Program-made: the position numbers and the translations under genes | Notes under the pieces: generated by a model | The model's input: the letters and a program-made list of their open reading frames with translations, nothing else | Database searches by the model: none | What the model was told of the DNA's origin: nothing | Origin: an uncultured Gammaproteobacteria bacterium | Lineage (GTDB): Bacteria; Patescibacteriota; Patescibacteriia; UBA9934 | Direction: 5' to 3' | Length of the DNA stretch: 64,000 nucleotides | NCBI GenBank assembly: GCA_964344415.1 | Contig: CAYFMS010000002.1 | Location: forward strand, 128,196 to 192,195 | In this document: positions 8,123 to 35,343 of the stretch, piece by piece | Layout of the letters: each line of letters opens with the position of its first letter | Numbering within the stretch: the stretch's first letter is position 1

Positions 8123-9127
8123 ATGAAGTTACTTGTGACTGGCGGGGCTGGATTTATAGGATCAAATTTTATCCATTACTGGCTAAAAAATCATCCCGAT
8201 GATGAAATTGTGAATCTCGATGCTCTGACCTATGCTGGGAATTTGGAAAATTTGCAGGGAGTTGAAAGTGATGAACGCTATCAGTTTGTGAAAGGGGATA
8301 TTACAGATCGAGATCTTGTTTTTAGCCTTGTGAAAGATTGTGACATTGTGGTGCATTATGCGGCGGAAAGTCATGTTGATCGGTCAATTTTAGATCCGGC
8401 AGCATTCATCAAAACAAATGTACTCGGGACGCAAGTGCTTTTGGATGCAGCGCGCGAATATGGGAAGCGATTCCATCATGTTTCGACGGATGAGGTTTAT
8501 GGAACATTAGCTCCAGAGGATTCTGCTTTTACGGAAGAATCTCCTTATAAACCGCGGAGCCCCTATGCGGCATCAAAAGCAGCGAGCGATCATTTAGTGC
8601 GCGCTTACCACGTGACATATGATTTGCCTGTTACATTATCGAATTGCTCGAATAATTACGGCCCATTTCATTTTCCAGAAAAATTAATCCCACTCTTTAT
8701 TACGAATCTTATGGAGGGGAAGAAGGTGCCAGTTTACGGAGATGGGGGGCAGATTCGTGACTGGATTCATACAGAAGATCATGCCCGAGGTGTTGAAGCG
8801 ATTATTAAAAAGGGGAAAGTCGGTGAAACATATTTGCTTGGGGGTAATAATCAGCCAACGAACCTTGAAATCACAAAAAAACTTCTTGATTTACTTGGAC
8901 GAGATGAATCCTTTATAGAATATGTGAAAGATAGGCCTGGGCATGACCGACGCTATGACATCGACTTTACAAAGGCGAAAAATGAATTAGGATGGGAACC
9001 GAAAATTGATTTGAATGCAGGACTTACAATGACGGTTGACTGGTATAAGAAAAATGAAGATTGGTGGAAGAATTGTAAGTCAGGTTCTTACCAAGAATAT
9101 TACGAAAAACAGTATAAAGATCGATAG
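8123..9127 (+). CDS. rfbB: dTDP-glucose 4,6-dehydratase
   Basis: TGGAGFIGS motif with a YxxxK catalytic context. The sequence is typical of RfbB. Confidence 0.85.
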   Translation: MKLLVTGGAGFIGSNFIHYWLKNHPDDEIVNLDALTYAGNLENLQGVESDERYQFVKGDITDRDLVFSLVKDCDIVVHYAAESHVDRSILDPAAFIKTNVLGTQVLLDAAREYGKRFHHVSTDEVYGTLAPEDSAFTEESPYKPRSPYAASKAASDHLVRAYHVTYDLPVTLSNCSNNYGPFHFPEKLIPLFITNLMEGKKVPVYGDGGQIRDWIHTEDHARGVEAIIKKGKVGETYLLGGNNQPTNLEITKKLLDLLGRDESFIEYVKDRPGHDRRYDIDFTKAKNELGWEPKIDLNAGLTMTVDWYKKNEDWWKNCKSGSYQEYYEKQYKDR

Positions 9128-9128
9128 T

Positions 9129-10217
9129 ATGAAAGCAGTTATTACGGCGGGCGGGCGCGGAACGCGATTAAGGCCCGTAACCTGGACAATGAATAAACAT
9201 GTGATACCCATTGCGAATGAGCCAATGATTTTTAATGCATTTCGGAAAATTGCGGAAACGGGCATTAAAGATGTGGCCGTCATCATCAATGAGGGTGATA
9301 TTGATTTGCCTCGTATTTGTGGTGATGGGTCAAGATGGGGTATTTCTCTAACGTATATTGAACAGGTCGGTGGGCCGCTTGGGCTCGCAAACACATTGTG
9401 GCAGGCAAAGGATTTTGTTGGAAATGATGATGTCCTTCTATACCTTGGAGACAATATCGTTCTTGGTTCGCTTTCTGATCTTGTGAACAAGTTTCAGAAT
9501 GAACATCTTGATTGCTGCTTGGCTCTAACTCGCGTTGATGACCCTGAGCGTTTTGGTGTTGCTGAAATTGATGCAGATGGCAGGATTACGGCCGTTATTG
9601 AAAAGCCGGAAAATCCACCGAATAATTTAGCAGTGACGGGACTCTATATTTATAAAGGGCCGAGCTATTTTGAGGCATATGAACATATTCAACCTTCAGA
9701 TCGAGGTGAGTATGAAATTTCAGATATTCATGACTGGTTTGTGAAAAATGGCCGTACTGTTGGATATGAAGAGATGTTTGGTTGGTGGAAAGATACAGGA
9801 AAGCCAGATGATTTGCTTGAAGGGAATCAGTTGCTATTGAATGAAATGGGGCTCGAGGATGCGACGATCGACGAGGCGGCAACGGTGCATAAGGATGCGC
9901 GTATTCAAGGACGCGTGAAAATTGCTGCGGGAGCGGAGATTGAGCAAGATGTATTGATTCGAGGCCCGGTTATCATTGGTGCTAATGCCAAGCTCGAGAA
10001 TTGTTATATTGGCCCGCATACCACGATTGGAAATAACACGGTTATTTCAGATTGCGAAATCGAGCATTCTATTGTTATGGATGGTGCGAAGATATCCACC
10101 AATGAACGCATTACAGACAGCATTATCGGTCACAATGCAACGATTGTGAAGCAGGCGGCATCTCGTCCCGGAGGCCATAAAATGGTCATCGGCGAGAATA
10201 CATATCTTGAATTATAA
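9129..10217 (+). CDS. sugar-phosphate nucleotidyltransferase with a C-terminal hexapeptide-repeat domain (RmlA-like, long form)
   Basis: N-terminal AGGRGTRLRPVT motif and a C-terminal left-handed beta-helix repeat region. The ATG lies 1 nt after the rfbB stop codon. Confidence 0.7.
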   Translation: MKAVITAGGRGTRLRPVTWTMNKHVIPIANEPMIFNAFRKIAETGIKDVAVIINEGDIDLPRICGDGSRWGISLTYIEQVGGPLGLANTLWQAKDFVGNDDVLLYLGDNIVLGSLSDLVNKFQNEHLDCCLALTRVDDPERFGVAEIDADGRITAVIEKPENPPNNLAVTGLYIYKGPSYFEAYEHIQPSDRGEYEISDIHDWFVKNGRTVGYEEMFGWWKDTGKPDDLLEGNQLLLNEMGLEDATIDEAATVHKDARIQGRVKIAAGAEIEQDVLIRGPVIIGANAKLENCYIGPHTTIGNNTVISDCEIEHSIVMDGAKISTNERITDSIIGHNATIVKQAASRPGGHKMVIGENTYLEL

Positions 10218-11953: not shown

Positions 11954-12784
11954 ATGAATGTGAAAAAGGAGGACGGTCGCATCGTCCCATTTGACCCAGC
12001 AAAAGTGATTGAAAGCATCAAAAGAACTGGTGCGGGCGATGAAGTTGCGGAGAAAGTTCTGAATGCTGTGCGTTCAAAAATGACAGATGGCATGACAACA
12101 GCGAAACTGTATCACCTTGTACGTGCCGAGCTTGATAAGCAAAATATTTGCTTCGCTTGTAGATATGGCTTGCGGGAGGGGATTTTAAAGCTTGGTCCGG
12201 CTGGATATAATTTTGAATATTATATTGCTGCTATTTTGCGTGCCTATGGCTATGAAGCTACAAATCCGCAAAGAGATATCGAGGGAAGTTGCGTAGCTCA
12301 TGAAGTTGATGTTATTGGCGAAAAAGACGGGAAGCGTATTTTTATAGAAGCAAAGTTTAGGAATCGTCGCAGCGATAATGTGAATTTGAAAGATATCATG
12401 GCAACATGGTCCAGGTTCGTTGATTTGGTCGATGGAGGGTCAATGGGCAAGAATCCTGGTTTTGACGAATGTCATGTTATGACAAATGCTCGTTTTTCTG
12501 ATCGAGCATTGGCATTTGGTGAATGTAAAGGAATGAAATTAACGGGATGGAGCTATCCGAAAGAGGGGGCATTTAATGAATTGGTTGATCGAGTTGAGTT
12601 TTACCCAGTGACTGTCATTGAAGATATGTCAAAAACGGAGCTTGAGCATTTCGCGAAAGCAGGACTCATTTTATGTAAAGATATTGAGGGTCTGGAACCG
12701 GAAGAGTTGGCGGACCGGACGGATATTTCTGTGCATCGCGCAGAAGAATTAATCGGACTTTGCACGAAAGTAATTGAGGGATAA
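11954..12784 (+). CDS. ATP-cone domain fused to an Mrr-like PD-(D/E)xK restriction endonuclease domain, with a C-terminal HhH-like region
   Basis: N-terminal sequence VKKEDGRIVPFDPAKVIESIKR is ATP-cone. The nuclease core has D...EVDVIG...EAK. Confidence 0.6.
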   Translation: MNVKKEDGRIVPFDPAKVIESIKRTGAGDEVAEKVLNAVRSKMTDGMTTAKLYHLVRAELDKQNICFACRYGLREGILKLGPAGYNFEYYIAAILRAYGYEATNPQRDIEGSCVAHEVDVIGEKDGKRIFIEAKFRNRRSDNVNLKDIMATWSRFVDLVDGGSMGKNPGFDECHVMTNARFSDRALAFGECKGMKLTGWSYPKEGAFNELVDRVEFYPVTVIEDMSKTELEHFAKAGLILCKDIEGLEPEELADRTDISVHRAEELIGLCTKVIEG

Positions 12785-12810
12785 AAAAACAGGCCTTTGC
12801 AGGTCTGTTT
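12785..12810. terminator. bidirectional terminator between convergent genes
   Basis: Hairpin caggcc-tttgc-aggtctg with an A-run on one side and a T-run on the other. Confidence 0.55.
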
Positions 12811-13038
12811 TTACTTATAGTCGCGGAGGTCGAATTTCTTACCCTCGGCTGCCCACTTTTGCAGCGTTCGCAGTCCTCGAGTTGAAATCTGAACCGTTTC
12901 CATCTTTCCTGTTGCAGGATTGAGCATACGCTTCTTCTGCATATTCGGATGCTGGCGACGTTTTGTCTTTACATTTGAGTGACTTACATTGTGGCCTGTA
13001 AGGGCTGTTTTTCCAGTCACTTTGCATTCTTTTGCCAT
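12811..13038 (-). CDS. rpmB: 50S ribosomal protein L28
   Basis: MAKECKVTGKTALTGHNVSHSNVKTKRR... matches the L28 signature. Confidence 0.8.
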   Translation of the reverse strand: MAKECKVTGKTALTGHNVSHSNVKTKRRQHPNMQKKRMLNPATGKMETVQISTRGLRTLQKWAAEGKKFDLRDYK

Positions 13039-13173: not shown

Positions 13174-14529
13174 ATGAAGGGGGATTCCGGAGGCAAAAAG
13201 GCGCATATTGTTGCGGTGAATATGGGATATGGTCATGAGAGGCCGGCACATGTCATGCGGCAGCTTTTTGGCTATAAAAATCAGGTGATAATAGCCAATG
13301 ATTATGAGGGTATTCCCGAACGAGATCAGCGATTATGGGAGGATGGCCGCAAGGTCTATGAAAAGGTATCTCGTTTCAAAAAAGTGCCTGTTTTTGGACA
13401 AATGGTATTTGGGATCATGAATGAGATTCAGCGAATACCTCCTTTTTATCCACAAAGAGATTTATCATCCCCAAGCCTACAGGTTCGTCAATTTTATTGG
13501 TTGATTCGCCAGAAAAACATGATGCGGCACTTAATTGAGAAGTTAGGGGAGCATCCTTTGCCATTTGTCAGCACATTTATGTCGCCAGCATTTGCTGCTG
13601 AAGAATTTGGTTACCCGGAAGATATTTTTGTGCTTTGCACGGATTCCGATATAAGCAGAGCATGGGTCCCGCTCGATCCAAAAAAGACGCGCATTCAGTA
13701 CTTTGCACCGACTGGCCGCGTTGCTGCTCGTTTGAATATGTATGGCGTGCCTGAAAAGAATATTCATCTAACCGGATTCCCACTTCCTCCAAAAAATATT
13801 GGCGGGACGGAATCAAAGTTGGTCCTTTCAGATTTAAACCGGCGTATTTGTAATTTGGATCCGAATGGATATTTTATTGCACATACGGGTGTGGCATTGA
13901 ATGCCTATCTTGGCGCGCAGTATTGTCGAAATGTTCAGAAAAAGAAAGCGACAAAGATTCAATTGGCTTTTGCTGTTGGTGGAGCTGGTGCTCAAAGAGA
14001 AATCGGCGGTGCGATTATGAAATCTCTCAAGAGAGAGCTGGCGCAAAATAAAATAGTTTTGCATTTAATTGCGGGGACGAGGCTAGAGGTTGCGCGATAT
14101 TTTGAAGATGCTGCTCGGCAGTTAAGGCTTTCGAAGTTTTTAGGAAAATCGATCAAAATTCTTATCGAGCCGAGCCGCCCTCAATACTTTGATGCATTTT
14201 CTGCGCTCATGAGGAAAATCGATATTTTATGGACAAAGCCAAGTGAATTGTCTTTTTATGCTGGGCTTGGAATTCCGATTATTATGGCACCGACCGTTGG
14301 GTCTCAGGAAGATTTTAATAAGCAATGGTTGACGCAAATGGGGGCGGGGATTGATCAAATGGATCCGCGCTATACAAATGAATGGCTTTTTGATTGGATT
14401 GAATCTGGTGCACTTGCGCGGATGGCTTGGAATGGATACATCGAGGCGCCGACGCATGGTGTTTACCGAATCCATGAGACGATTAGTGGGCGTAAGCATG
14501 ATATTCACCCATTACCACTCATAGTCTAG
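13174..14529 (+). CDS. putative GT-B fold glycosyltransferase (MurG/MGDG-synthase-like)
   Basis: N-terminal NMGYGHERPAH and C-terminal PIIMAPTVGSQEDFNKQWL...GAG, which resembles GT28 C-terminal motifs. Confidence 0.4.
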   Translation: MKGDSGGKKAHIVAVNMGYGHERPAHVMRQLFGYKNQVIIANDYEGIPERDQRLWEDGRKVYEKVSRFKKVPVFGQMVFGIMNEIQRIPPFYPQRDLSSPSLQVRQFYWLIRQKNMMRHLIEKLGEHPLPFVSTFMSPAFAAEEFGYPEDIFVLCTDSDISRAWVPLDPKKTRIQYFAPTGRVAARLNMYGVPEKNIHLTGFPLPPKNIGGTESKLVLSDLNRRICNLDPNGYFIAHTGVALNAYLGAQYCRNVQKKKATKIQLAFAVGGAGAQREIGGAIMKSLKRELAQNKIVLHLIAGTRLEVARYFEDAARQLRLSKFLGKSIKILIEPSRPQYFDAFSALMRKIDILWTKPSELSFYAGLGIPIIMAPTVGSQEDFNKQWLTQMGAGIDQMDPRYTNEWLFDWIESGALARMAWNGYIEAPTHGVYRIHETISGRKHDIHPLPLIV

Positions 14530-15699: not shown

Positions 15700-17775
15700 A
15701 TGAAGGAATTCGTTTTAACAGGTTCTTCACCGAGAGATTTGAAAATTGATTATGATGCTGAGCTTAATGATCAGCAATTGCAGGTCGTGAAAGAGGCGGA
15801 TGGTGCATCACTCGTTTTGGCTGGGGCCGGTTCGGGAAAAACACGTACCATTACCTATCGTGTTGCATGGCTGATGGAGCATGGAGTGAGTCCAGAAAAT
15901 ATCTTGCTTGTCACATTCACAAATAAGGCATCACGCGAAATGATCGAACGAGTGGAGGGGTTGCTTGGGTCTTATCCAAAAGGGCTTTGGGCTGGAACAT
16001 TTCACTCAATTGCGAATCGATTGTTGCGTAAATATGCTCACACAATTGGGTATCAATCGAATTTTTCTATTCTAAGTGAGGAAGATGCGCGCGACCTAAT
16101 TTCCCTCTGCGTAAAAGATTTAAAAATTGACACGAAAAAACGTCGCTTTCCAAGTAATAAAGTTTTGCTTGGCTACATTTCATATAGTCGGAATAGGCAA
16201 GATGATTTTGAATGGTTTATCGAGCATAATCATCCGAAAATGCTACCAATTATTGGCGACATGAAGGCAGTTGCGAATAAGTATGCCGAAGTAAAGAAAT
16301 TGCAGAATGCAATGGATTTTGACGATTTGCTTATTAATTTACTTGAGCTACTTCAAAATCCGGAAATTATTAGTCGGCTGTCGAATCAATTTCAGTATGT
16401 ATTGGTTGACGAGTTTCAGGACACAAATATCGTGCAGGCAAAAATTATTAAACTCATATCGAGTACGCATAAAAATGTCCTCGTCGTGGGGGATGATGCG
16501 CAGAGTATTTACTCATTCCGAGCGGCTGAAATCCGAAATATTCTCGATTTTCCAAATAGCTATGAACAGGCGAAGACATTCAGATTAACGAAGAATTATC
16601 GTTCAACACCGCAGATTCTCTCGATTGCAAATGCAGTTATTCAACATAATGAAGAACAATTCGATAAAGAATTATCTGCGACACGGGGCGGAGGTTCGCT
16701 TCCGGAATTAATCCCTGCTCGCAGCACAAGTCAAGAGGCGCAATATATTGCCGAAAAGATTTTAGATTTGCATGCAAAGGGGACGGCGCTCAGTGAAATT
16801 GCTGTGCTATTCCGCGCCGCATTTCATTCACAGGCACTTGAATTCGAGCTCATGAAACGCGACATTCCATATGACTATCGTGGCGGGATGAAATTTTTTG
16901 AACGTTCACATGTGAAAGATATTGTTTCGCATCTGCGTCTCCTCAATAATTTGAAAGATGGAATGGCTTGGGTGAGGGCACTTCGTATTCATCCAGGAAT
17001 TGGATTGGTAACGGCGGGGAAAATATCTGCCAAAGCGGGTGCATTTGATTCACTCAGGGATGCAGTAGACGCTTTGGGTCCTGGAGGAAAAAGGGCGCAA
17101 GCAGGATTTGAGGGATTTAGGCGCATTATTCGGAAGATGCTTTCCGTCCCAGATATGCCATCGGAACTCATACGAGCCCTTGCTTCAAGCGACGATTATA
17201 AAGCATATATCGAAAATGAATTTCCAAATTATCAGGATCGTTTGGATGATTTAGAGCAATTTGCCGTTTTCGCTGAGCAATTTAATGATCTCGGTGAATT
17301 TTTGGATGCAGTGAGCTTAACGGATGAATATGGTGTGAATACAAAGCAAAATCAGCCAATCGATAGTGATCGCATTATTCTTTCTACCATTCATCAGGCA
17401 AAGGGGCTTGAATGGGATGCGGTATTTATTATGAATTTGGCGGATGGAAAATTCCCGAATAAGCGCGCAATGGAAGAAGCGGATGGTGTTGAAGAAGAGC
17501 GCCGGCTTTTTTATGTCGCGACGACGCGTGCCCGCAGCGCACTTTTCATGACTTATCCAATCACGGCTGGATACGAACATGTTGAATTACAGCAACCGTC
17601 TATGTTTATCGATGAAATTCCAAAGGAAATGTATGAAACGGTGAAATTGCGCCATGAGAGGCCTCGGTATAATCATTCCCGACGCTCGGATGATTTTGAT
17701 ACTATTGTTCTTGATGAGCTTGGTGAACAGATTAAAAAACCAATGCCATCGTCATTCTTAAAAGATATTACATAA
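15700..17775 (+). CDS. pcrA: UvrD/PcrA-family ATP-dependent DNA helicase
   Basis: Walker A motif AGAGSGKTRTI, LLVTFTNKA, VLVDEFQDT, and YRS. The length of 691 aa is typical. Confidence 0.85.
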   Translation: MKEFVLTGSSPRDLKIDYDAELNDQQLQVVKEADGASLVLAGAGSGKTRTITYRVAWLMEHGVSPENILLVTFTNKASREMIERVEGLLGSYPKGLWAGTFHSIANRLLRKYAHTIGYQSNFSILSEEDARDLISLCVKDLKIDTKKRRFPSNKVLLGYISYSRNRQDDFEWFIEHNHPKMLPIIGDMKAVANKYAEVKKLQNAMDFDDLLINLLELLQNPEIISRLSNQFQYVLVDEFQDTNIVQAKIIKLISSTHKNVLVVGDDAQSIYSFRAAEIRNILDFPNSYEQAKTFRLTKNYRSTPQILSIANAVIQHNEEQFDKELSATRGGGSLPELIPARSTSQEAQYIAEKILDLHAKGTALSEIAVLFRAAFHSQALEFELMKRDIPYDYRGGMKFFERSHVKDIVSHLRLLNNLKDGMAWVRALRIHPGIGLVTAGKISAKAGAFDSLRDAVDALGPGGKRAQAGFEGFRRIIRKMLSVPDMPSELIRALASSDDYKAYIENEFPNYQDRLDDLEQFAVFAEQFNDLGEFLDAVSLTDEYGVNTKQNQPIDSDRIILSTIHQAKGLEWDAVFIMNLADGKFPNKRAMEEADGVEEERRLFYVATTRARSALFMTYPITAGYEHVELQQPSMFIDEIPKEMYETVKLRHERPRYNHSRRSDDFDTIVLDELGEQIKKPMPSSFLKDIT

Positions 17776-18587: not shown

Positions 18588-19322
18588 ATGAAAGCGTTCA
18601 AATCTCAGGGTAGCGAAGATACATGCCGCATGCCGCTTACGCCGGCTGAGCGTGAAATGTGCAAGACGCAAAATGGCCAGCAAACGAGAATGTCAGACAT
18701 AACCTGGCGGATTTTTCGCATCATGGCTGAATTTGTGGACGGCTTTCAATTTCTGTCATCCATGTCTCGCGAGGTGACGATTTTTGGATCAGCAAGATTG
18801 CCTGCAGAAAATAAATACTATCAGGAAGCTCGAAAGCTCGGTGCACTTCTGGCGGACGGTGGATTTACGGTTATTACCGGTGGTGGCCCTGGAATCATGG
18901 AAGCGGCAAATCGTGGAGCATATGAAGCTGGCGGAACATCTGTAGGGCTCAATATTCAGCTTCCAATGGAGCAGCGAGTAAACCCATATGTGAATAAGGC
19001 AAAAGCTTTTCATTATTTTTTCACGCGAAAAGTTATGCTCGCGGCGTCAGCGCAGGCCTATGTCTATTTTCCAGGCGGCTTCGGAACAATGGATGAACTT
19101 TTTGAAATTTTAACACTCATTCAAACAGAAAAATCAGAAAAAATTCCTGTTGTATTGGTTGGAAAAGAGTATTTTGGAGGATTAAAAGACTGGATGGACA
19201 AAACAATGCTCGGCACATTCGATGCAATTGATAGAGATGATATGGAATTATTTCATATTGTTGACACAGCAGAGGAGGCATTTAATCTCATAAAAAATTC
19301 TGGTGAGCGCACCTTTTTCTAA
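18588..19322 (+). CDS. LOG-family protein (TIGR00730, cytokinin riboside 5'-monophosphate phosphoribohydrolase-like)
   Basis: Motifs TGGGPGIMEAANRGA and PGGFGTMDEL. The true start may be internal. Confidence 0.75.
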   Translation: MKAFKSQGSEDTCRMPLTPAEREMCKTQNGQQTRMSDITWRIFRIMAEFVDGFQFLSSMSREVTIFGSARLPAENKYYQEARKLGALLADGGFTVITGGGPGIMEAANRGAYEAGGTSVGLNIQLPMEQRVNPYVNKAKAFHYFFTRKVMLAASAQAYVYFPGGFGTMDELFEILTLIQTEKSEKIPVVLVGKEYFGGLKDWMDKTMLGTFDAIDRDDMELFHIVDTAEEAFNLIKNSGERTFF

Positions 19323-33544: not shown

Positions 33545-33989
33545 GATAAAGCGCGAAACGTTGATTGCGATTATTATTGCAGCAGCACTTGTTGGTGTTG
33601 TTGCGGCAAGTTATACGGCTTTGGCAAAGCTTGGGGCAGCATCTCATGAAGTATGTTCGGTGAGCGAGAGTTTTAACTGTGAAATTGTTAATACAAGTCA
33701 ATGGTCCGAAATCGCCGGAATTCCCGTTTCAGTTTTGGGATTGATCTCGTATGTTCTGTTCATTATCGGATCACTCATTGTTCTGAAAAAACCACAGGAG
33801 AATATCGAAACGCTTTTAGGCGCTTTGGCAATCGTAGGTTTGCTGTTCAGTCTTTATCTGACATCCATTGAGGCATTTGTTTTGCATGCTTGGTGCATGT
33901 TCTGTATTGCTTCACAAATTGCCATTCTTATTATCGCCGCGGCTGTTATGATGCTGCGGTATAAAGATTTCGGAGGAAAAAATGCTTAA
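33522..33989 (+). CDS. vitamin K epoxide reductase (VKOR) family membrane protein
   Basis: Loop Cys pair CSVSESFNC and the active site WCMFC in TM4. Confidence 0.6.
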   Translation: MAANFLNKIKRETLIAIIIAAALVGVVAASYTALAKLGAASHEVCSVSESFNCEIVNTSQWSEIAGIPVSVLGLISYVLFIIGSLIVLKKPQENIETLLGALAIVGLLFSLYLTSIEAFVLHAWCMFCIASQIAILIIAAAVMMLRYKDFGGKNA

Positions 33990-35343
33990 ATTATCATTTC
34001 ATGGCGCGGTTCGGGGGGTGACGGGATCTGCTCATCTTGTTGAAACCGAAATGGGAAAATTGCTTGTTGATTGCGGGATGCATCAAGGGGAGCGGCTTTG
34101 TAGTAAAACAAATCATGAAGAATTTGATTTCGACCCAGCAGAAATCGATGCCGTTCTGGTAACGCATGCACATTTTGATCACACTGGGCGTTTACCTCTT
34201 CTCATCAAGCGAGGATTTAAGGGGTCCATATACACGACACCACCAACAAAGGCATTGATGCATTATATTTTGGAAGACGCGCTTCGGATTATGCAATACA
34301 ATGCTCAGAAATGCGGGGATGATATTTTATATTCCGGCGATGATTTGCAGGAAATGATGTCACGCGTAAAGGGGATTGGTTATCACACGGAATTTGAAGC
34401 GGCGCCGAAAATGCATGTCATGTTTCATGATGCTGGTCATATTTTAGGTTCAGCATTTATATCGGTGAAGACTCCTGAAAAGAAAATCGTATTCAGTGGT
34501 GATCTTGGAAATGATGATGTACCGATTCTCCCAGACACGGAGTATATTGAGCAGGCAGATTTTATCGTCTGTGAATCAACATATGGAGATAAGGATCATA
34601 ATCCGTCCAGTGAGAGAAAAGAGCAATTATTGCAGGATGTCATGAAAATTACTGGTCGTGGCGGCACAGTCATCATTCCCGCTTTTTCCATCGAGCGGAC
34701 ACAGGAGCTTCTTTATTTGCTTGATGAATTGGTCGATGAGGGGTCCTTGCCGGATATTCCCGTATTTTTAGACAGTCCACTTGCGATTCATGCGACGGAG
34801 GTGTATGAAAAATACAAAAATTATCTTCGTTTTGATCGGTCAACGAATGAGAGTAAGGATGGAGACTTTTTCTCTTTTCGAAATTTGCATATTACATTGA
34901 GAGTTGAGGATTCGAAAAATATTAATCAGCATAAGGGTCCAAAAGTTATCATTGCCGGAAGTGGAATGATGACGGGAGGACGTGTTCTGCATCATTTGAA
35001 ACGTTATCTACCAGATCCAGATAGCGGAGTCATTATTATCGGTTACCAAGCTCAGCATACGCTTGGTCGGAAGATTCAGGACGGGGCGCATCAAGTTGTG
35101 ATTCATCGAGAAACGGTGCCTGTGCATGCCGAGATTTTTGAAATTGAGTCATTTTCTGCACATGCGGGTAGATCGAAATTGGCAAAATGGGTGCAGCCAA
35201 GATCGGGCCCAGCTGAAAAAATATTTTTAGTGCATGGCGATTTAGAGGTGCGTCCGCAGCTTAAAGATTTTATGAAAAAAAATGGAGTTGAGAGCACGAT
35301 TATTTTGCCAGGATTTCAGCAAGAATTTGAATTGGATTTTTAA
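33982..35343 (+). CDS. MBL-fold beta-CASP ribonuclease
   Basis: THAHFDHTG motif and C-terminal beta-CASP motifs. Confidence 0.7.
   Translation: MLKLSFHGAVRGVTGSAHLVETEMGKLLVDCGMHQGERLCSKTNHEEFDFDPAEIDAVLVTHAHFDHTGRLPLLIKRGFKGSIYTTPPTKALMHYILEDALRIMQYNAQKCGDDILYSGDDLQEMMSRVKGIGYHTEFEAAPKMHVMFHDAGHILGSAFISVKTPEKKIVFSGDLGNDDVPILPDTEYIEQADFIVCESTYGDKDHNPSSERKEQLLQDVMKITGRGGTVIIPAFSIERTQELLYLLDELVDEGSLPDIPVFLDSPLAIHATEVYEKYKNYLRFDRSTNESKDGDFFSFRNLHITLRVEDSKNINQHKGPKVIIAGSGMMTGGRVLHHLKRYLPDPDSGVIIIGYQAQHTLGRKIQDGAHQVVIHRETVPVHAEIFEIESFSAHAGRSKLAKWVQPRSGPAEKIFLVHGDLEVRPQLKDFMKKNGVESTIILPGFQQEFELDF

What the first reader, a model, noticed from the sequence alone, without database searches (positions are those of the whole stretch)
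11954..12784. ATP-cone domain fused to an Mrr-like PD-(D/E)xK nuclease and a C-terminal HhH-like tail
The N-terminal ~90 aa match the ATP-cone, the allosteric (d)ATP sensor of NrdR and ribonucleotide reductases. The middle has the Mrr catalytic signature D...EVD...EAK. This suggests a nuclease whose activity is gated by the nucleotide pool. No methyltransferase or specificity subunit is adjacent. It lies between an LCP envelope gene and rpmB, so it is a solitary nuclease and probably a type IV-like or defence/maintenance endonuclease.
Basis: partly seen in the sequence, partly recalled or inferred. Interest (0 to 1): 0.5.

Follow-up and report, generated by a model that had tools for sequence, protein, structure and literature searches.

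The report
ATP-cone-gated AF1548-type nuclease
This gene encodes a DNA/RNA-cutting enzyme fused to the adenine-nucleotide sensor that normally controls DNA-precursor synthesis; it belongs to a large, never-studied family that sits beside nucleotide-recycling genes in other microbes, so it probably recycles nucleic acids rather than defending against viruses.

Summary

The protein belongs to a large, catalogued but uncharacterised family: 524 clusters at 50% identity and 437 GTDB species, in Patescibacteria, DPANN, Bathyarchaeia, Bacteroidota and Chlamydiota. Architecture and catalytic residues are essentially invariant.

The "type IV/defence" reading is not supported. No defence or methylase neighbours recur. 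The gene is absent from phage genomes and present on 2 of 72,556 plasmids. Its closest clade keeps a housekeeping synteny (HU-LCP-gene-L28-DUF6938-UvrD).

In a ~30%-identical clade the gene heads operons with a beta-CASP nuclease (25/58 loci), a thymidine/AMP-phosphorylase-family enzyme (12/33) and a PRPP-synthetase-like enzyme (11/33). In a Bathyarchaeon it follows ribose-1,5-bisphosphate isomerase and AMP phosphorylase.

Best reading: an adenine-nucleotide-gated endonuclease that feeds nucleic-acid-to-nucleotide-to-pentose salvage. Nothing has been tested biochemically.

The parts
11954..12784 (+). Complete gene for the 276-aa ATP-cone / AF1548-type nuclease / HhH protein (stop codon included)
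   Evidence: ORF list. The same gene is called on public contigs. There are 258 full-length homologs. AF2 model pLDDT 92.6, pTM 0.84.
11954..12187 (+). ATP-cone sensor domain (aa 1-78): a beta-hairpin plus helices. Residues V3, K5, G8, F13 and K17 occupy the positions of NrdR V48, K50, G53, F58 and K62.
12191..12217 (+). Invariant linker LGPAGYNFE (aa 80-88; G81, P82, G84, F87, E88). It joins the last ATP-cone helix to the first catalytic helix. E88 is the first acidic catalytic residue.
   Evidence: G81, P82, G84, F87 and E88 are conserved in 146-149 of 150 diverse representatives. The ATP-cone-less AF1548 begins at about this point (alignment).
12191..12595 (+). PD-(D/E)xK nuclease core (aa 80-214). 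Catalytic residues: E88 (12215-12217), D119 (12308-12310), E132 (12347-12349), K134 (12353-12355). Further invariant residues: E117, R154, D157, N178, W199.
12602..12772 (+). C-terminal HhH-type domain (aa 217-273), AF1548-like_C
12785..12812 (.). A/T-flanked 12-bp hairpin between the convergent nuclease gene and rpmB. It is probably a bidirectional terminator.
   Evidence: RNA fold gives -14.4 kcal/mol, z -3.4 against shuffles. The simple terminator scan did not list it.

Best explanation
The gene encodes a stand-alone nuclease regulated by adenine nucleotides. The C-terminal two-thirds is an AF1548-type module: an active PD-(D/E)xK metal-dependent phosphodiesterase followed by an HhH domain that holds nucleic acid without sequence specificity. 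The N-terminal ATP-cone binds adenine nucleotides (ATP, dATP, possibly ADP). As in ribonucleotide reductases and NrdR, it should change the protein's oligomeric or conformational state. That change would be passed through the invariant GPAG-x-FE linker to the first catalytic helix (E88) and switch cleavage on or off. Physiologically the enzyme is most likely the entry step of nucleic-acid turnover and salvage. It would cut DNA and/or RNA when the adenylate or deoxyadenylate pool signals shortage. A beta-CASP nuclease would then trim the fragments to nucleotides, which are phosphorolysed and recycled (AMP/thymidine-phosphorylase family, ribose-1,5-bisphosphate isomerase, PRPP-synthetase-like enzyme). 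In this small-genome Patescibacterium the function would be housekeeping, which would explain the vertical inheritance among core genes. What is shown: the domain identities, the intact and invariant catalytic residues, the family size, the synteny and the operon partners in other clades. What is inferred: nucleotide binding, the direction of regulation, the substrate, and transfer of the pathway role from the ~30%-identical clades to this protein.
For: Architecture and fold. Selection on catalytic and sensor residues: E88, E117, D119, E132, K134, R154, D157 and N178 are conserved in at least 149 of 150 representatives. K5 and K17 are 143/150, G8 is 141/150, and V/I3 and F/Y13 are also conserved. 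These sensor positions map to NrdR residues whose mutation abolishes nucleotide binding (PMC9110341). The same paper shows that an ATP-cone acts through nucleotide-dependent oligomerisation, with hinge movement of its last helices, and also senses ADP. Family size: 524 clusters at 50% identity with E<=1e-30, and the top 150 are nearly all full-length three-domain proteins of 265-295 aa. There are 437 GTDB species matches. Not mobile and not defence-linked. Conserved housekeeping synteny in the closest clade. Pathway context: Pontibacter and Criblamydia both carry the operon ATP-cone nuclease, beta-CASP MBL, thymidine-phosphorylase family, PRPP synthetase. In 80 metagenome loci of that clade, a beta-CASP gene lies within 1 kb downstream on the same strand in 25/58 loci, the phosphorylase in 12/33 and the PRPP-synthetase-like gene in 11/33. 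Gene order varies but linkage is kept. In Bathyarchaeia locus L073 the gene follows ribose-1,5-bisphosphate isomerase (397 bits, cutoff 314) and AMP phosphorylase (610 bits, cutoff 535) on the same strand with a 38-bp gap. An MBL / PRPP synthetase / thymidine-phosphorylase-family trio is among the core microoxia-induced proteins of Bradyrhizobium (PMC6515984). Other neighbours in Bacteroidota are stress and energy genes: Usp x2, phosphoketolase, acetate kinase, glgP.
Against: The pathway partners are not adjacent in this window or in its Patescibacterial clade. Only 2 of about 60 CPR loci have a beta-CASP gene within 4.5 kb. The window's own beta-CASP homolog lies 21 kb away in an unrelated context. 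No AMP phosphorylase or ribose-1,5-bisphosphate isomerase is in the window. The clade with operon evidence is only 30-33% identical to this protein. The window protein lacks two canonical ATP-cone contact side chains. The NrdR R51 equivalent is Glu6 here and mostly Ala in the family. The E56 equivalent is Val11 here, though it is Glu in 105/149 of the family. The ligand or its affinity may therefore differ. The substrate (DNA or RNA) is unknown. No paper in the searchable library describes an ATP-cone nuclease, so no biochemistry supports any step. Gene neighbourhood is correlative evidence only.
Confidence: 0.5

Rival explanations
1. Nucleotide-regulated DNA repair or recombination nuclease. 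The PD-(D/E)xK core plus HhH domain would recognise DNA structures (flaps, forks, junctions, mismatches), as XPF/Mus81, Hjc or NucS do. The ATP-cone would couple cutting to dNTP availability, so that processing happens only when repair synthesis can follow.
Against: The structural matches to Hjc and NucS are no better than those to restriction or CRISPR-ancillary nucleases. HU and UvrD linkage is confined to one clade. No repair gene recurs as a neighbour across clades, whereas nucleotide-catabolic genes do.
Confidence: 0.2
2. Anti-phage or anti-foreign-DNA defence nuclease. It would be a type IV-like or abortive-infection enzyme whose ATP-cone senses the disturbance of the dATP/ATP pool during infection and unleashes the nuclease.
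Against: PADLOC gives no hit (best E 0.043) and NCBIfam GapS1 gives E 0.12. The protein has no modified-DNA reader domain. Neighbours are housekeeping or catabolic genes, and only generic single PADLOC hits appear among 150 neighbour clusters. Synteny is stable across genomes whose proteins are only ~50% identical. The gene is absent from phages and essentially absent from plasmids.
Confidence: 0.15
3. The ATP-cone no longer senses nucleotides. It would serve only as an oligomerisation or structural domain of a constitutive nuclease, or it would bind a different ligand.
For: The canonical Arg of the K-R-D-G motif is missing from most of the family. The window protein also lacks the Glu that reads adenine N6 in NrdR. 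The Pfam match covers only the first 60 residues.
Against: K5, G8, F13, K17, T49, R/K70, Y71 and K/R74 are conserved in 132 to 148 of about 150 diverse members. This argues for a maintained binding pocket. The fold superposes on nucleotide-loaded NrdR ATP-cones over 88 residues. AF1548 shows that the nuclease module works as a unit without the cone, so keeping the cone in hundreds of lineages implies a selected function.
Confidence: 0.1

Closest known systems
AF1548 of Archaeoglobus fulgidus (PDB 1Y88; Pfam PF22357 AF1548-like_C plus Mrr_cat core), a structural-genomics protein of unknown function
   Different: AF1548 has no ATP-cone. It starts at about the GPAG linker. AF1548 has never been characterised biochemically, so it gives a fold but not a function.
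ATP-cone of NrdR and of ribonucleotide reductases (Pfam PF03477)
   Different: The cone is attached to a nuclease rather than to a reductase or a Zn-ribbon repressor. The equivalents of NrdR Arg51 and, in this protein, Glu56 are not kept. Ligand and stoichiometry are unknown.
Mrr / type IV modification-dependent restriction endonucleases (Mrr_cat PF04471; MspJI, AspBHI)
   Different: There is no N-terminal modified-DNA recognition domain, no defence-island context and no mobility.
Ligand-gated PD-(D/E)xK effector nucleases of CRISPR/CBASS (Can2, Card1, Cdn1, NucC, Cap4)
   Different: The sensor here is an ATP-cone reading primary metabolites, not a CARF or SAVED domain reading cyclic oligonucleotide second messengers. 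No signalling cyclase or CRISPR genes are nearby.
Archaeal AMP phosphorylase / ribose-1,5-bisphosphate isomerase nucleotide-degradation pathway.
   Same: Family members sit directly next to AMP phosphorylase and ribose-1,5-bisphosphate isomerase (L073). In Bacteroidota, Chlamydiota and metagenome loci they sit next to archaeal-type thymidine/AMP-phosphorylase-family genes.
   Different: No nuclease has been assigned to that pathway as far as I know. In this window the pathway genes are not adjacent.

Membership tests
ATP-cone domain (PF03477) | Profile HMM match above Pfam gathering score | tested here: met
   37.3 bits against a cutoff of 25.8, E 4.1e-9, aa 1-60.
ATP-cone domain (PF03477) | Beta-hairpin plus helical bundle fold that superposes on solved ATP-cones | tested here: met
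ATP-cone domain (PF03477) | Nucleotide-contacting residues (equivalents of NrdR V48, K50, R51, E56, K62) | tested here: inconclusive
   V3, K5, F13 and K17 are present and conserved in the family (K5 143/150, K17 143/150). The R51 equivalent is Glu in this protein and mostly Ala in the family. The E56 equivalent is Val here and Glu in 105/149 of the family.
ATP-cone domain (PF03477) | Binds ATP/dATP and changes oligomeric state | not testable with these tools
   Needs ITC or DSF, plus SEC-MALS or mass photometry.
PD-(D/E)xK nuclease, Mrr_cat (PF04471) | Profile match above gathering score and restriction-endonuclease fold | tested here: met
PD-(D/E)xK nuclease, Mrr_cat (PF04471) | Catalytic acidic residues and Lys (E...D...ExK) present and conserved | tested here: met
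   E88 is 149/150. D119, E132 and K134 are 150/150 across diverse representatives.
AF1548-like family (PDB 1Y88; PF22357) | Contiguous nuclease core plus C-terminal HhH domain homologous to AF1548 | tested here: met
Type IV (Mrr-like) modification-dependent restriction enzyme | A domain that recognises modified DNA (Mrr_N, SRA or similar), fused or partnered | tested here: not met
   Only the ATP-cone, Mrr_cat and AF1548-like_C domains are detected. No such domain or partner gene is present.
Type IV (Mrr-like) modification-dependent restriction enzyme | Defence-island or mobile context; match to defence-system models | tested here: not met
   PADLOC best E 0.043. Neighbour census. Searches of phages, plasmids and IMG/VR.
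Type IV (Mrr-like) modification-dependent restriction enzyme | Cleaves modified DNA only | not testable with these tools
   Needs an in vitro or in vivo restriction assay.
NrdR repressor | N-terminal Zn-ribbon with two CxxC motifs in front of the ATP-cone | tested here: not met
   The ATP-cone starts at residue 1 and there is no Zn-ribbon. NrdR architecture is taken from PMC9110341.
Archaeal Hjc Holliday-junction resolvase (JGI label on some homologs) | Hjc-family sequence match and a compact nuclease of about 120-140 aa | tested here: not met
CARF/SAVED-gated effector nucleases (Can2, Card1, NucC, Cap4) | CARF or SAVED sensor, or activation by a cyclic oligonucleotide | tested here: not met
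   No CARF or SAVED domain is present. Only the nuclease cores superpose. The protein may work like these enzymes but is not a member.

The most novel reading that the evidence does not exclude
This family is the missing entry nuclease of the nucleotide-degradation (AMP-phosphorylase / pentose-bisphosphate-type) route in CPR bacteria, DPANN and other archaea, Bacteroidota and Chlamydiota. An ATP-cone would read the cell's adenylate or deoxyadenylate state and license cannibalisation of DNA or RNA for nucleotides, pentose carbon and ATP. It would be the first ATP-cone shown to control an enzyme other than ribonucleotide reductase or its repressor.
Probability: 0.3. Interest if true: 0.7.

Novelty: new variant of a known kind. 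Interest (0 to 1): 0.5.

Why it matters
The ATP-cone is known experimentally only as the switch of ribonucleotide reductases and of their repressor NrdR. A nuclease governed by the same sensor would extend that logic from making DNA precursors to recovering them from nucleic acids. Patescibacteria and DPANN archaea cannot make nucleotides de novo and are thought to live on scavenged nucleic acids (my own knowledge, not checked here). A conserved, pool-gated nuclease would be a concrete and testable piece of that lifestyle. The family is large, small in protein size (about 280 aa), predicted with high confidence and present in cultivable Bacteroidota such as Pontibacter. Biochemistry and genetics are therefore feasible. 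It would also give a function to AF1548, a structure that has been orphaned since 2004.

Tried and rejected
- Defence reading. PADLOC and NCBIfam scans of the protein gave nothing significant. A PADLOC scan of 150 neighbour-cluster representatives gave only eight single, generic hits, for example a cysteine desulfurase matching DndA/SspA. Rejected as the primary explanation.
- Mobile-element cargo. tblastn found no match in 50,697 phage genomes. The IMG/VR pattern scan confirmed no relative. Only two plasmids carry the gene. Those two hits turned out to be the most useful lead, because of their operon context.
- Universal functional partner. All-against-all clustering of neighbours in 90 loci found none. 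The HU / LCP / L28 / DUF6938 / UvrD neighbourhood is clade-specific.
- Literature. Six full-text searches for an ATP-cone combined with nuclease, endonuclease, Mrr, restriction endonuclease, Patescibacteria or Holliday junction found no description of this fusion. The only relevant AF1548 mention is the 2007 GOS paper.
- Longer ORFs in L050, L054 and L057 (465-563 aa) as possible informative N-terminal fusions. Pfam finds nothing in the extensions, so they are probably artefacts of my ORF caller taking the first start codon.
- The window's beta-CASP gene as a local partner. It lies 21 kb away among Dus, Era and Mur-ligase genes, with no evidence of linkage.
- AMP phosphorylase and ribose-1,5-bisphosphate isomerase. 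Neither is found in the window or the CPR loci.
- Simple terminator scan. It missed the hairpin after the gene. Direct folding supports the hairpin.
- Rfam and tRNA scans of the window found only four tRNAs, none near the gene.
- Model coordinates are not exposed to scripts. I could therefore not measure whether the conserved Cys/His residues cluster or how the cone packs on the active site.

Full report
**1. The observation**

The + strand carries an ORF from ATG 11954 to the stop ending at 12784, encoding 276 aa. The identical protein is called as a gene on a 768-kb metagenome contig (ENA ERZ930061) and on a Logan assembly of the same run.

Pfam finds three domains, each above its curated threshold:
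- ATP-cone, aa 1-60: 37.3 bits against a cutoff of 25.8.
- Mrr_cat, aa 84-196: 26.9 bits against 21.
- AF1548-like_C, aa 217-273: 26.5 bits against 23.9.

The stated neighbours are right. An LCP (LytR_cpsA_psr) gene ends 5 nt upstream. rpmB (L28) converges from the minus strand. No methyltransferase or specificity gene lies within +/-8 kb.

**2. Anatomy**

phmmer against PDB sequences gives a single hit. It is AF1548 of Archaeoglobus fulgidus (1Y88, "unknown function"), E 2.8e-31, covering aa 89-276. AF1548 lacks the ATP-cone and starts at about the linker of the present protein.

- Nuclease core, next best matches: AspBHI (11.7), NucS (10.3), MspJI (9.8), LlaBIII (9.8), Can2/Card1 (8-9), Hjc (6-7).

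A 12-bp hairpin flanked by A and T runs lies between the stop codon and rpmB (12785-12812; -14.4 kcal/mol, z -3.4). With the 5-nt gap to the LCP gene, this suggests co-transcription with the upstream gene and termination right after.

**3. The family**

A word-indexed search found 258 homologs. Practically all are full length, share 44-64% identity, and come mostly from Patescibacteria (Uhrbacteria, Parcubacteria). Their names are "ATP cone domain-containing protein", "restriction endonuclease", "Holliday junction resolvase" or "hypothetical".

A profile search of 1.84 billion cluster representatives found 1,580 hits. Of these, 524 have E<=1e-30. The best 150 are almost all 265-295 aa and match the profile end to end.

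A scan of one genome per GTDB species confirmed 437 loci. They come from Patescibacteria, DPANN archaea (Altiarchaeota, Micrarchaeota, Aenigmatarchaeota), Bathyarchaeia, Bacteroidota, Nitrospinota, Methylomirabilis and Binatia. Many records titled "uncultured Gammaproteobacteria" carry CPR-like synteny, so that label looks like a placeholder.

Conservation across 150 representatives that are at most 50% identical to each other:
- E88, E117, D119, E132, K134, R154, D157, N178 and W199 are conserved in at least 149 of 150.
- The linker G81-P82-x-G84-x-x-F87-E88 is equally fixed.

D119, E132 and K134 correspond to AF1548 D38, E51 and K53, which were predicted catalytic in the 2007 GOS paper (PMC1821046).

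In the ATP-cone, V/I3, K5 (143/150), G8, F/Y13, K17 (143/150), T49, R/K70, Y71 and K/R74 are conserved. By spacing, V3, K5, F13 and K17 match S. coelicolor NrdR V48, K50, F58 and K62. Mutation of V48, K50, E56 or K62 impairs nucleotide binding (PMC9110341). Two contacts are not kept here. The R51 equivalent is Glu6 in this protein and mostly Ala in the family. The E56 equivalent is Val11 in this protein, although it is Glu in 105/149 members. The cone is therefore clearly under selection, but its exact ligand preference cannot be read from sequence.

**4. Context: not defence**

PADLOC and NCBIfam give nothing significant for the protein.

In the clade closest to the window (about 50-64% identity), the order HU, LCP, this gene, L28, DUF6938, UvrD-type helicase recurs in genomes from different samples. 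Clustering neighbours in 90 loci gave these counts: L28 in 28 loci, LCP in 27, DUF6938 in 26, HU in 17 and UvrD in 12. Other Patescibacterial clades have different but equally ordinary neighbours:
- leucyl aminopeptidase and small membrane proteins;
- a Zn-uptake ABC system;
- MnmA.

A Pfam and PADLOC census of 150 neighbour-cluster representatives shows diverse housekeeping genes. No methyltransferase or defence family recurs.

The protein has no match in 50,697 phage genomes. An IMG/VR scan with two family peptide patterns confirmed no relative. Only 2 of 72,556 plasmids carry it.

This is the signature of a vertically inherited chromosomal gene. It is not the signature of a restriction or abortive-infection module.

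**5. Context: a link to nucleotide catabolism**

The two plasmid hits are in cultured and unrelated bacteria: Pontibacter actiniarum (Bacteroidota) and Criblamydia sequanensis (Chlamydiota). Both show the same four-gene operon:
1. ATP-cone nuclease.
2. "MBL fold metallo-hydrolase".
3. "Thymidine phosphorylase family protein".
4. "Ribose-phosphate pyrophosphokinase".

The MBL protein is a beta-CASP nuclease (Lactamase_B + Beta-Casp + RMMBL; aCPSF1-like core). The phosphorylase matches the archaeal-type families TIGR02645 and PRK04350 and comes close to AMP phosphorylase. The kinase belongs to the PRK07199 subfamily. In Criblamydia the operon is flanked by phosphoketolase, glycogen phosphorylase and acetate kinase.

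I then scanned metagenome contigs with an alignment of this clade. It gave 80 loci, 45-62% identical to the Pontibacter protein. The window protein is 30% identical to the Pontibacter protein in alignment A5. The counts:

| Partner gene | Criterion | Loci |
|---|---|---|
| beta-CASP nuclease | same strand, within 1 kb downstream (loci with at least 1.5 kb downstream) | 25/58 |
| beta-CASP nuclease | within 6 kb downstream (loci with at least 7 kb downstream) | 20/33 |
| Phosphorylase-family gene | within 7 kb downstream | 12/33 |
| PRPP-synthetase-like gene | within 7 kb downstream | 11/33 |

Gene order varies between loci. In L096 the order is phosphorylase, kinase, beta-CASP. L155 has the phosphorylase and kinase but no beta-CASP. 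Varying order with retained linkage argues for selected linkage.

Other recurrent neighbours there are tandem universal stress proteins, a P-type ATPase, MgtC/DUF4010 and a response-regulator/cNMP/Crp-type regulator.

Independently, in a Bathyarchaeia genome (L073) the gene follows two others on the same strand with a 38-bp gap. These are ribose-1,5-bisphosphate isomerase (TIGR00511, 397 bits against 314) and a bona fide AMP phosphorylase (TIGR03327, 610 bits against 535). From my own knowledge, these are the first two enzymes of the archaeal nucleotide-degradation route.

In Bradyrhizobium diazoefficiens, an adjacent trio of an MBL hydrolase, a PRPP synthetase and a thymidine-phosphorylase-family protein (bll3115-3117) belongs to the core microoxia-induced proteome and transcriptome (PMC6515984). 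I did not verify that bll3115 is a beta-CASP ortholog.

**6. Limits of that inference for this window**

In the Patescibacterial clade the partners are not adjacent. Only L052 and L057 have a beta-CASP gene within 4.5 kb. The window does encode a beta-CASP homolog (33982-35343, 35% identical to the Pontibacter one). It lies 21 kb away among Dus, Era and Mur-ligase genes. No AMP phosphorylase or isomerase is in the 64 kb. The pathway role is therefore transferred by homology of an invariant architecture, not shown for this genome.

**7. Mechanism proposed**

Shown:
- An intact metal-dependent phosphodiesterase core.
- A non-specific nucleic-acid-binding HhH domain.
- A selected ATP-cone.
- An invariant linker that connects the cone's last helix directly to the helix bearing catalytic E88.

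Inferred: adenine-nucleotide occupancy of the cone alters oligomerisation or the position of its C-terminal helices. This is what happens in NrdR, with up to 6 A of hinge movement and dodecamer, octamer and tetramer states (PMC9110341). That change would gate substrate access or active-site geometry. Given the operon partners, the enzyme would most plausibly start nucleic-acid breakdown when the adenylate or deoxyadenylate pool signals shortage. A beta-CASP nuclease and a nucleotide or nucleoside phosphorylase would act downstream.

The direction of the switch and the substrate (DNA or RNA) are open. I put this at about 0.5. The rivals are a nucleotide-coupled repair or recombination nuclease (0.2), a defence nuclease (0.15) and a cone that no longer senses nucleotides (0.1).

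**8. Comparison with known systems and novelty**

The protein is a member of the AF1548-like family and carries genuine ATP-cone and Mrr_cat domains. It is not an Mrr/type IV enzyme, because it has no modified-DNA reader and no defence context. It is not NrdR, because it has no Zn-ribbon. It is not Hjc, and it is not a CARF- or SAVED-gated nuclease. It may nevertheless work like the last group, as a small-molecule sensor fused to a restriction-fold effector.

The architecture is already in databases under the RefSeq name "ATP cone domain-containing protein". In the literature I could search there is no description and no experiment. I therefore rate it a new variant of a known kind: a known sensor on a known effector fold, in a combination and biological context that have not been characterised. 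Interest is moderate (0.5). The window gene itself is an ordinary member of its family. The family, however, would extend ATP-cone regulation beyond ribonucleotide reduction and may supply a missing nuclease for nucleotide scavenging in small-genome symbionts.

Noticed in passing
window 11954-12784 (aa 66, 69, 113, 116, 133, 136, 191, 241) and family alignment: The family has a conserved Cys/His set near the active site: C113 (143/150), H116 (140/150), a Cys between catalytic E132 and K134 (107/150), H136 (118/150), C191 (142/150) and C241 (71/150). The window's clade has Ala133 and Arg136 instead, and carries an extra CxxC (C66, C69) at the end of the ATP-cone. This may be a metal or redox site. 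AF1548 keeps three of the Cys.
   Followed up: partly
window 33982-35343 (+): A beta-CASP nuclease of 453 aa (Lactamase_B + Beta-Casp + RMMBL), 35% identical to the beta-CASP that is operon-linked to ATP-cone nucleases in Bacteroidota and Chlamydiota. Here it sits among Dus, Era and Mur-ligase-like genes. Whether it is the functional partner is unknown.
   Followed up: partly
window 18588-19322 (+): A LOG/'Lysine_decarbox' family protein (LDcluster4), about 6 kb downstream of the nuclease. From my own knowledge this family comprises nucleotide 5'-monophosphate N-glycosidases. It is not syntenic in the related genomes examined.
   Followed up: no
window 13174-14529 (+): A DUF6938 protein (451 aa) is conserved next to rpmB and upstream of a UvrD/PcrA-type helicase (15700-17775) in the same Patescibacterial clade. 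It was found in 26 of 90 loci. Its function is unknown.
   Followed up: no
L087 and L090 (4230-8216); L145, L150, L153, L159, L162, L169: In Flavobacteriaceae-type loci the ATP-cone nuclease is preceded by two tandem universal stress proteins and followed by the beta-CASP gene. In Chitinophagales and Saprospiraceae (L088, L089) it lies between a response-regulator/cNMP-binding/Crp-HTH regulator and an MgtC/DUF4010 membrane protein. This looks like a stress or low-energy gene island.
   Followed up: partly
L011, L012, L014, L023, L024, L027, L028 and others (record titles): Many MAG records titled 'uncultured Gammaproteobacteria bacterium' (TPA_asm, SRP..._co / binchicken) carry the same HU-LCP-nuclease-L28-DUF6938 synteny as Uhrbacteria MAGs. 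The organism label in those records looks like a placeholder or an error.
   Followed up: no
window 9036-10217 vs 8123-9127 (+): The mechanical ORF list starts the sugar-nucleotidyltransferase gene at TTG 9036, overlapping the preceding dehydratase/epimerase gene by 92 nt. The public gene call starts it at about 9129 (362 aa), directly after the upstream stop.
   Followed up: no
PMC6515984 Table 2 (Bradyrhizobium bll3115-bll3117): An adjacent trio of an MBL hydrolase, a PRPP synthetase and a thymidine-phosphorylase-family protein is strongly induced by microoxia at both protein and transcript level. No function is discussed. The same trio follows the ATP-cone nuclease in other phyla.
   Followed up: partly
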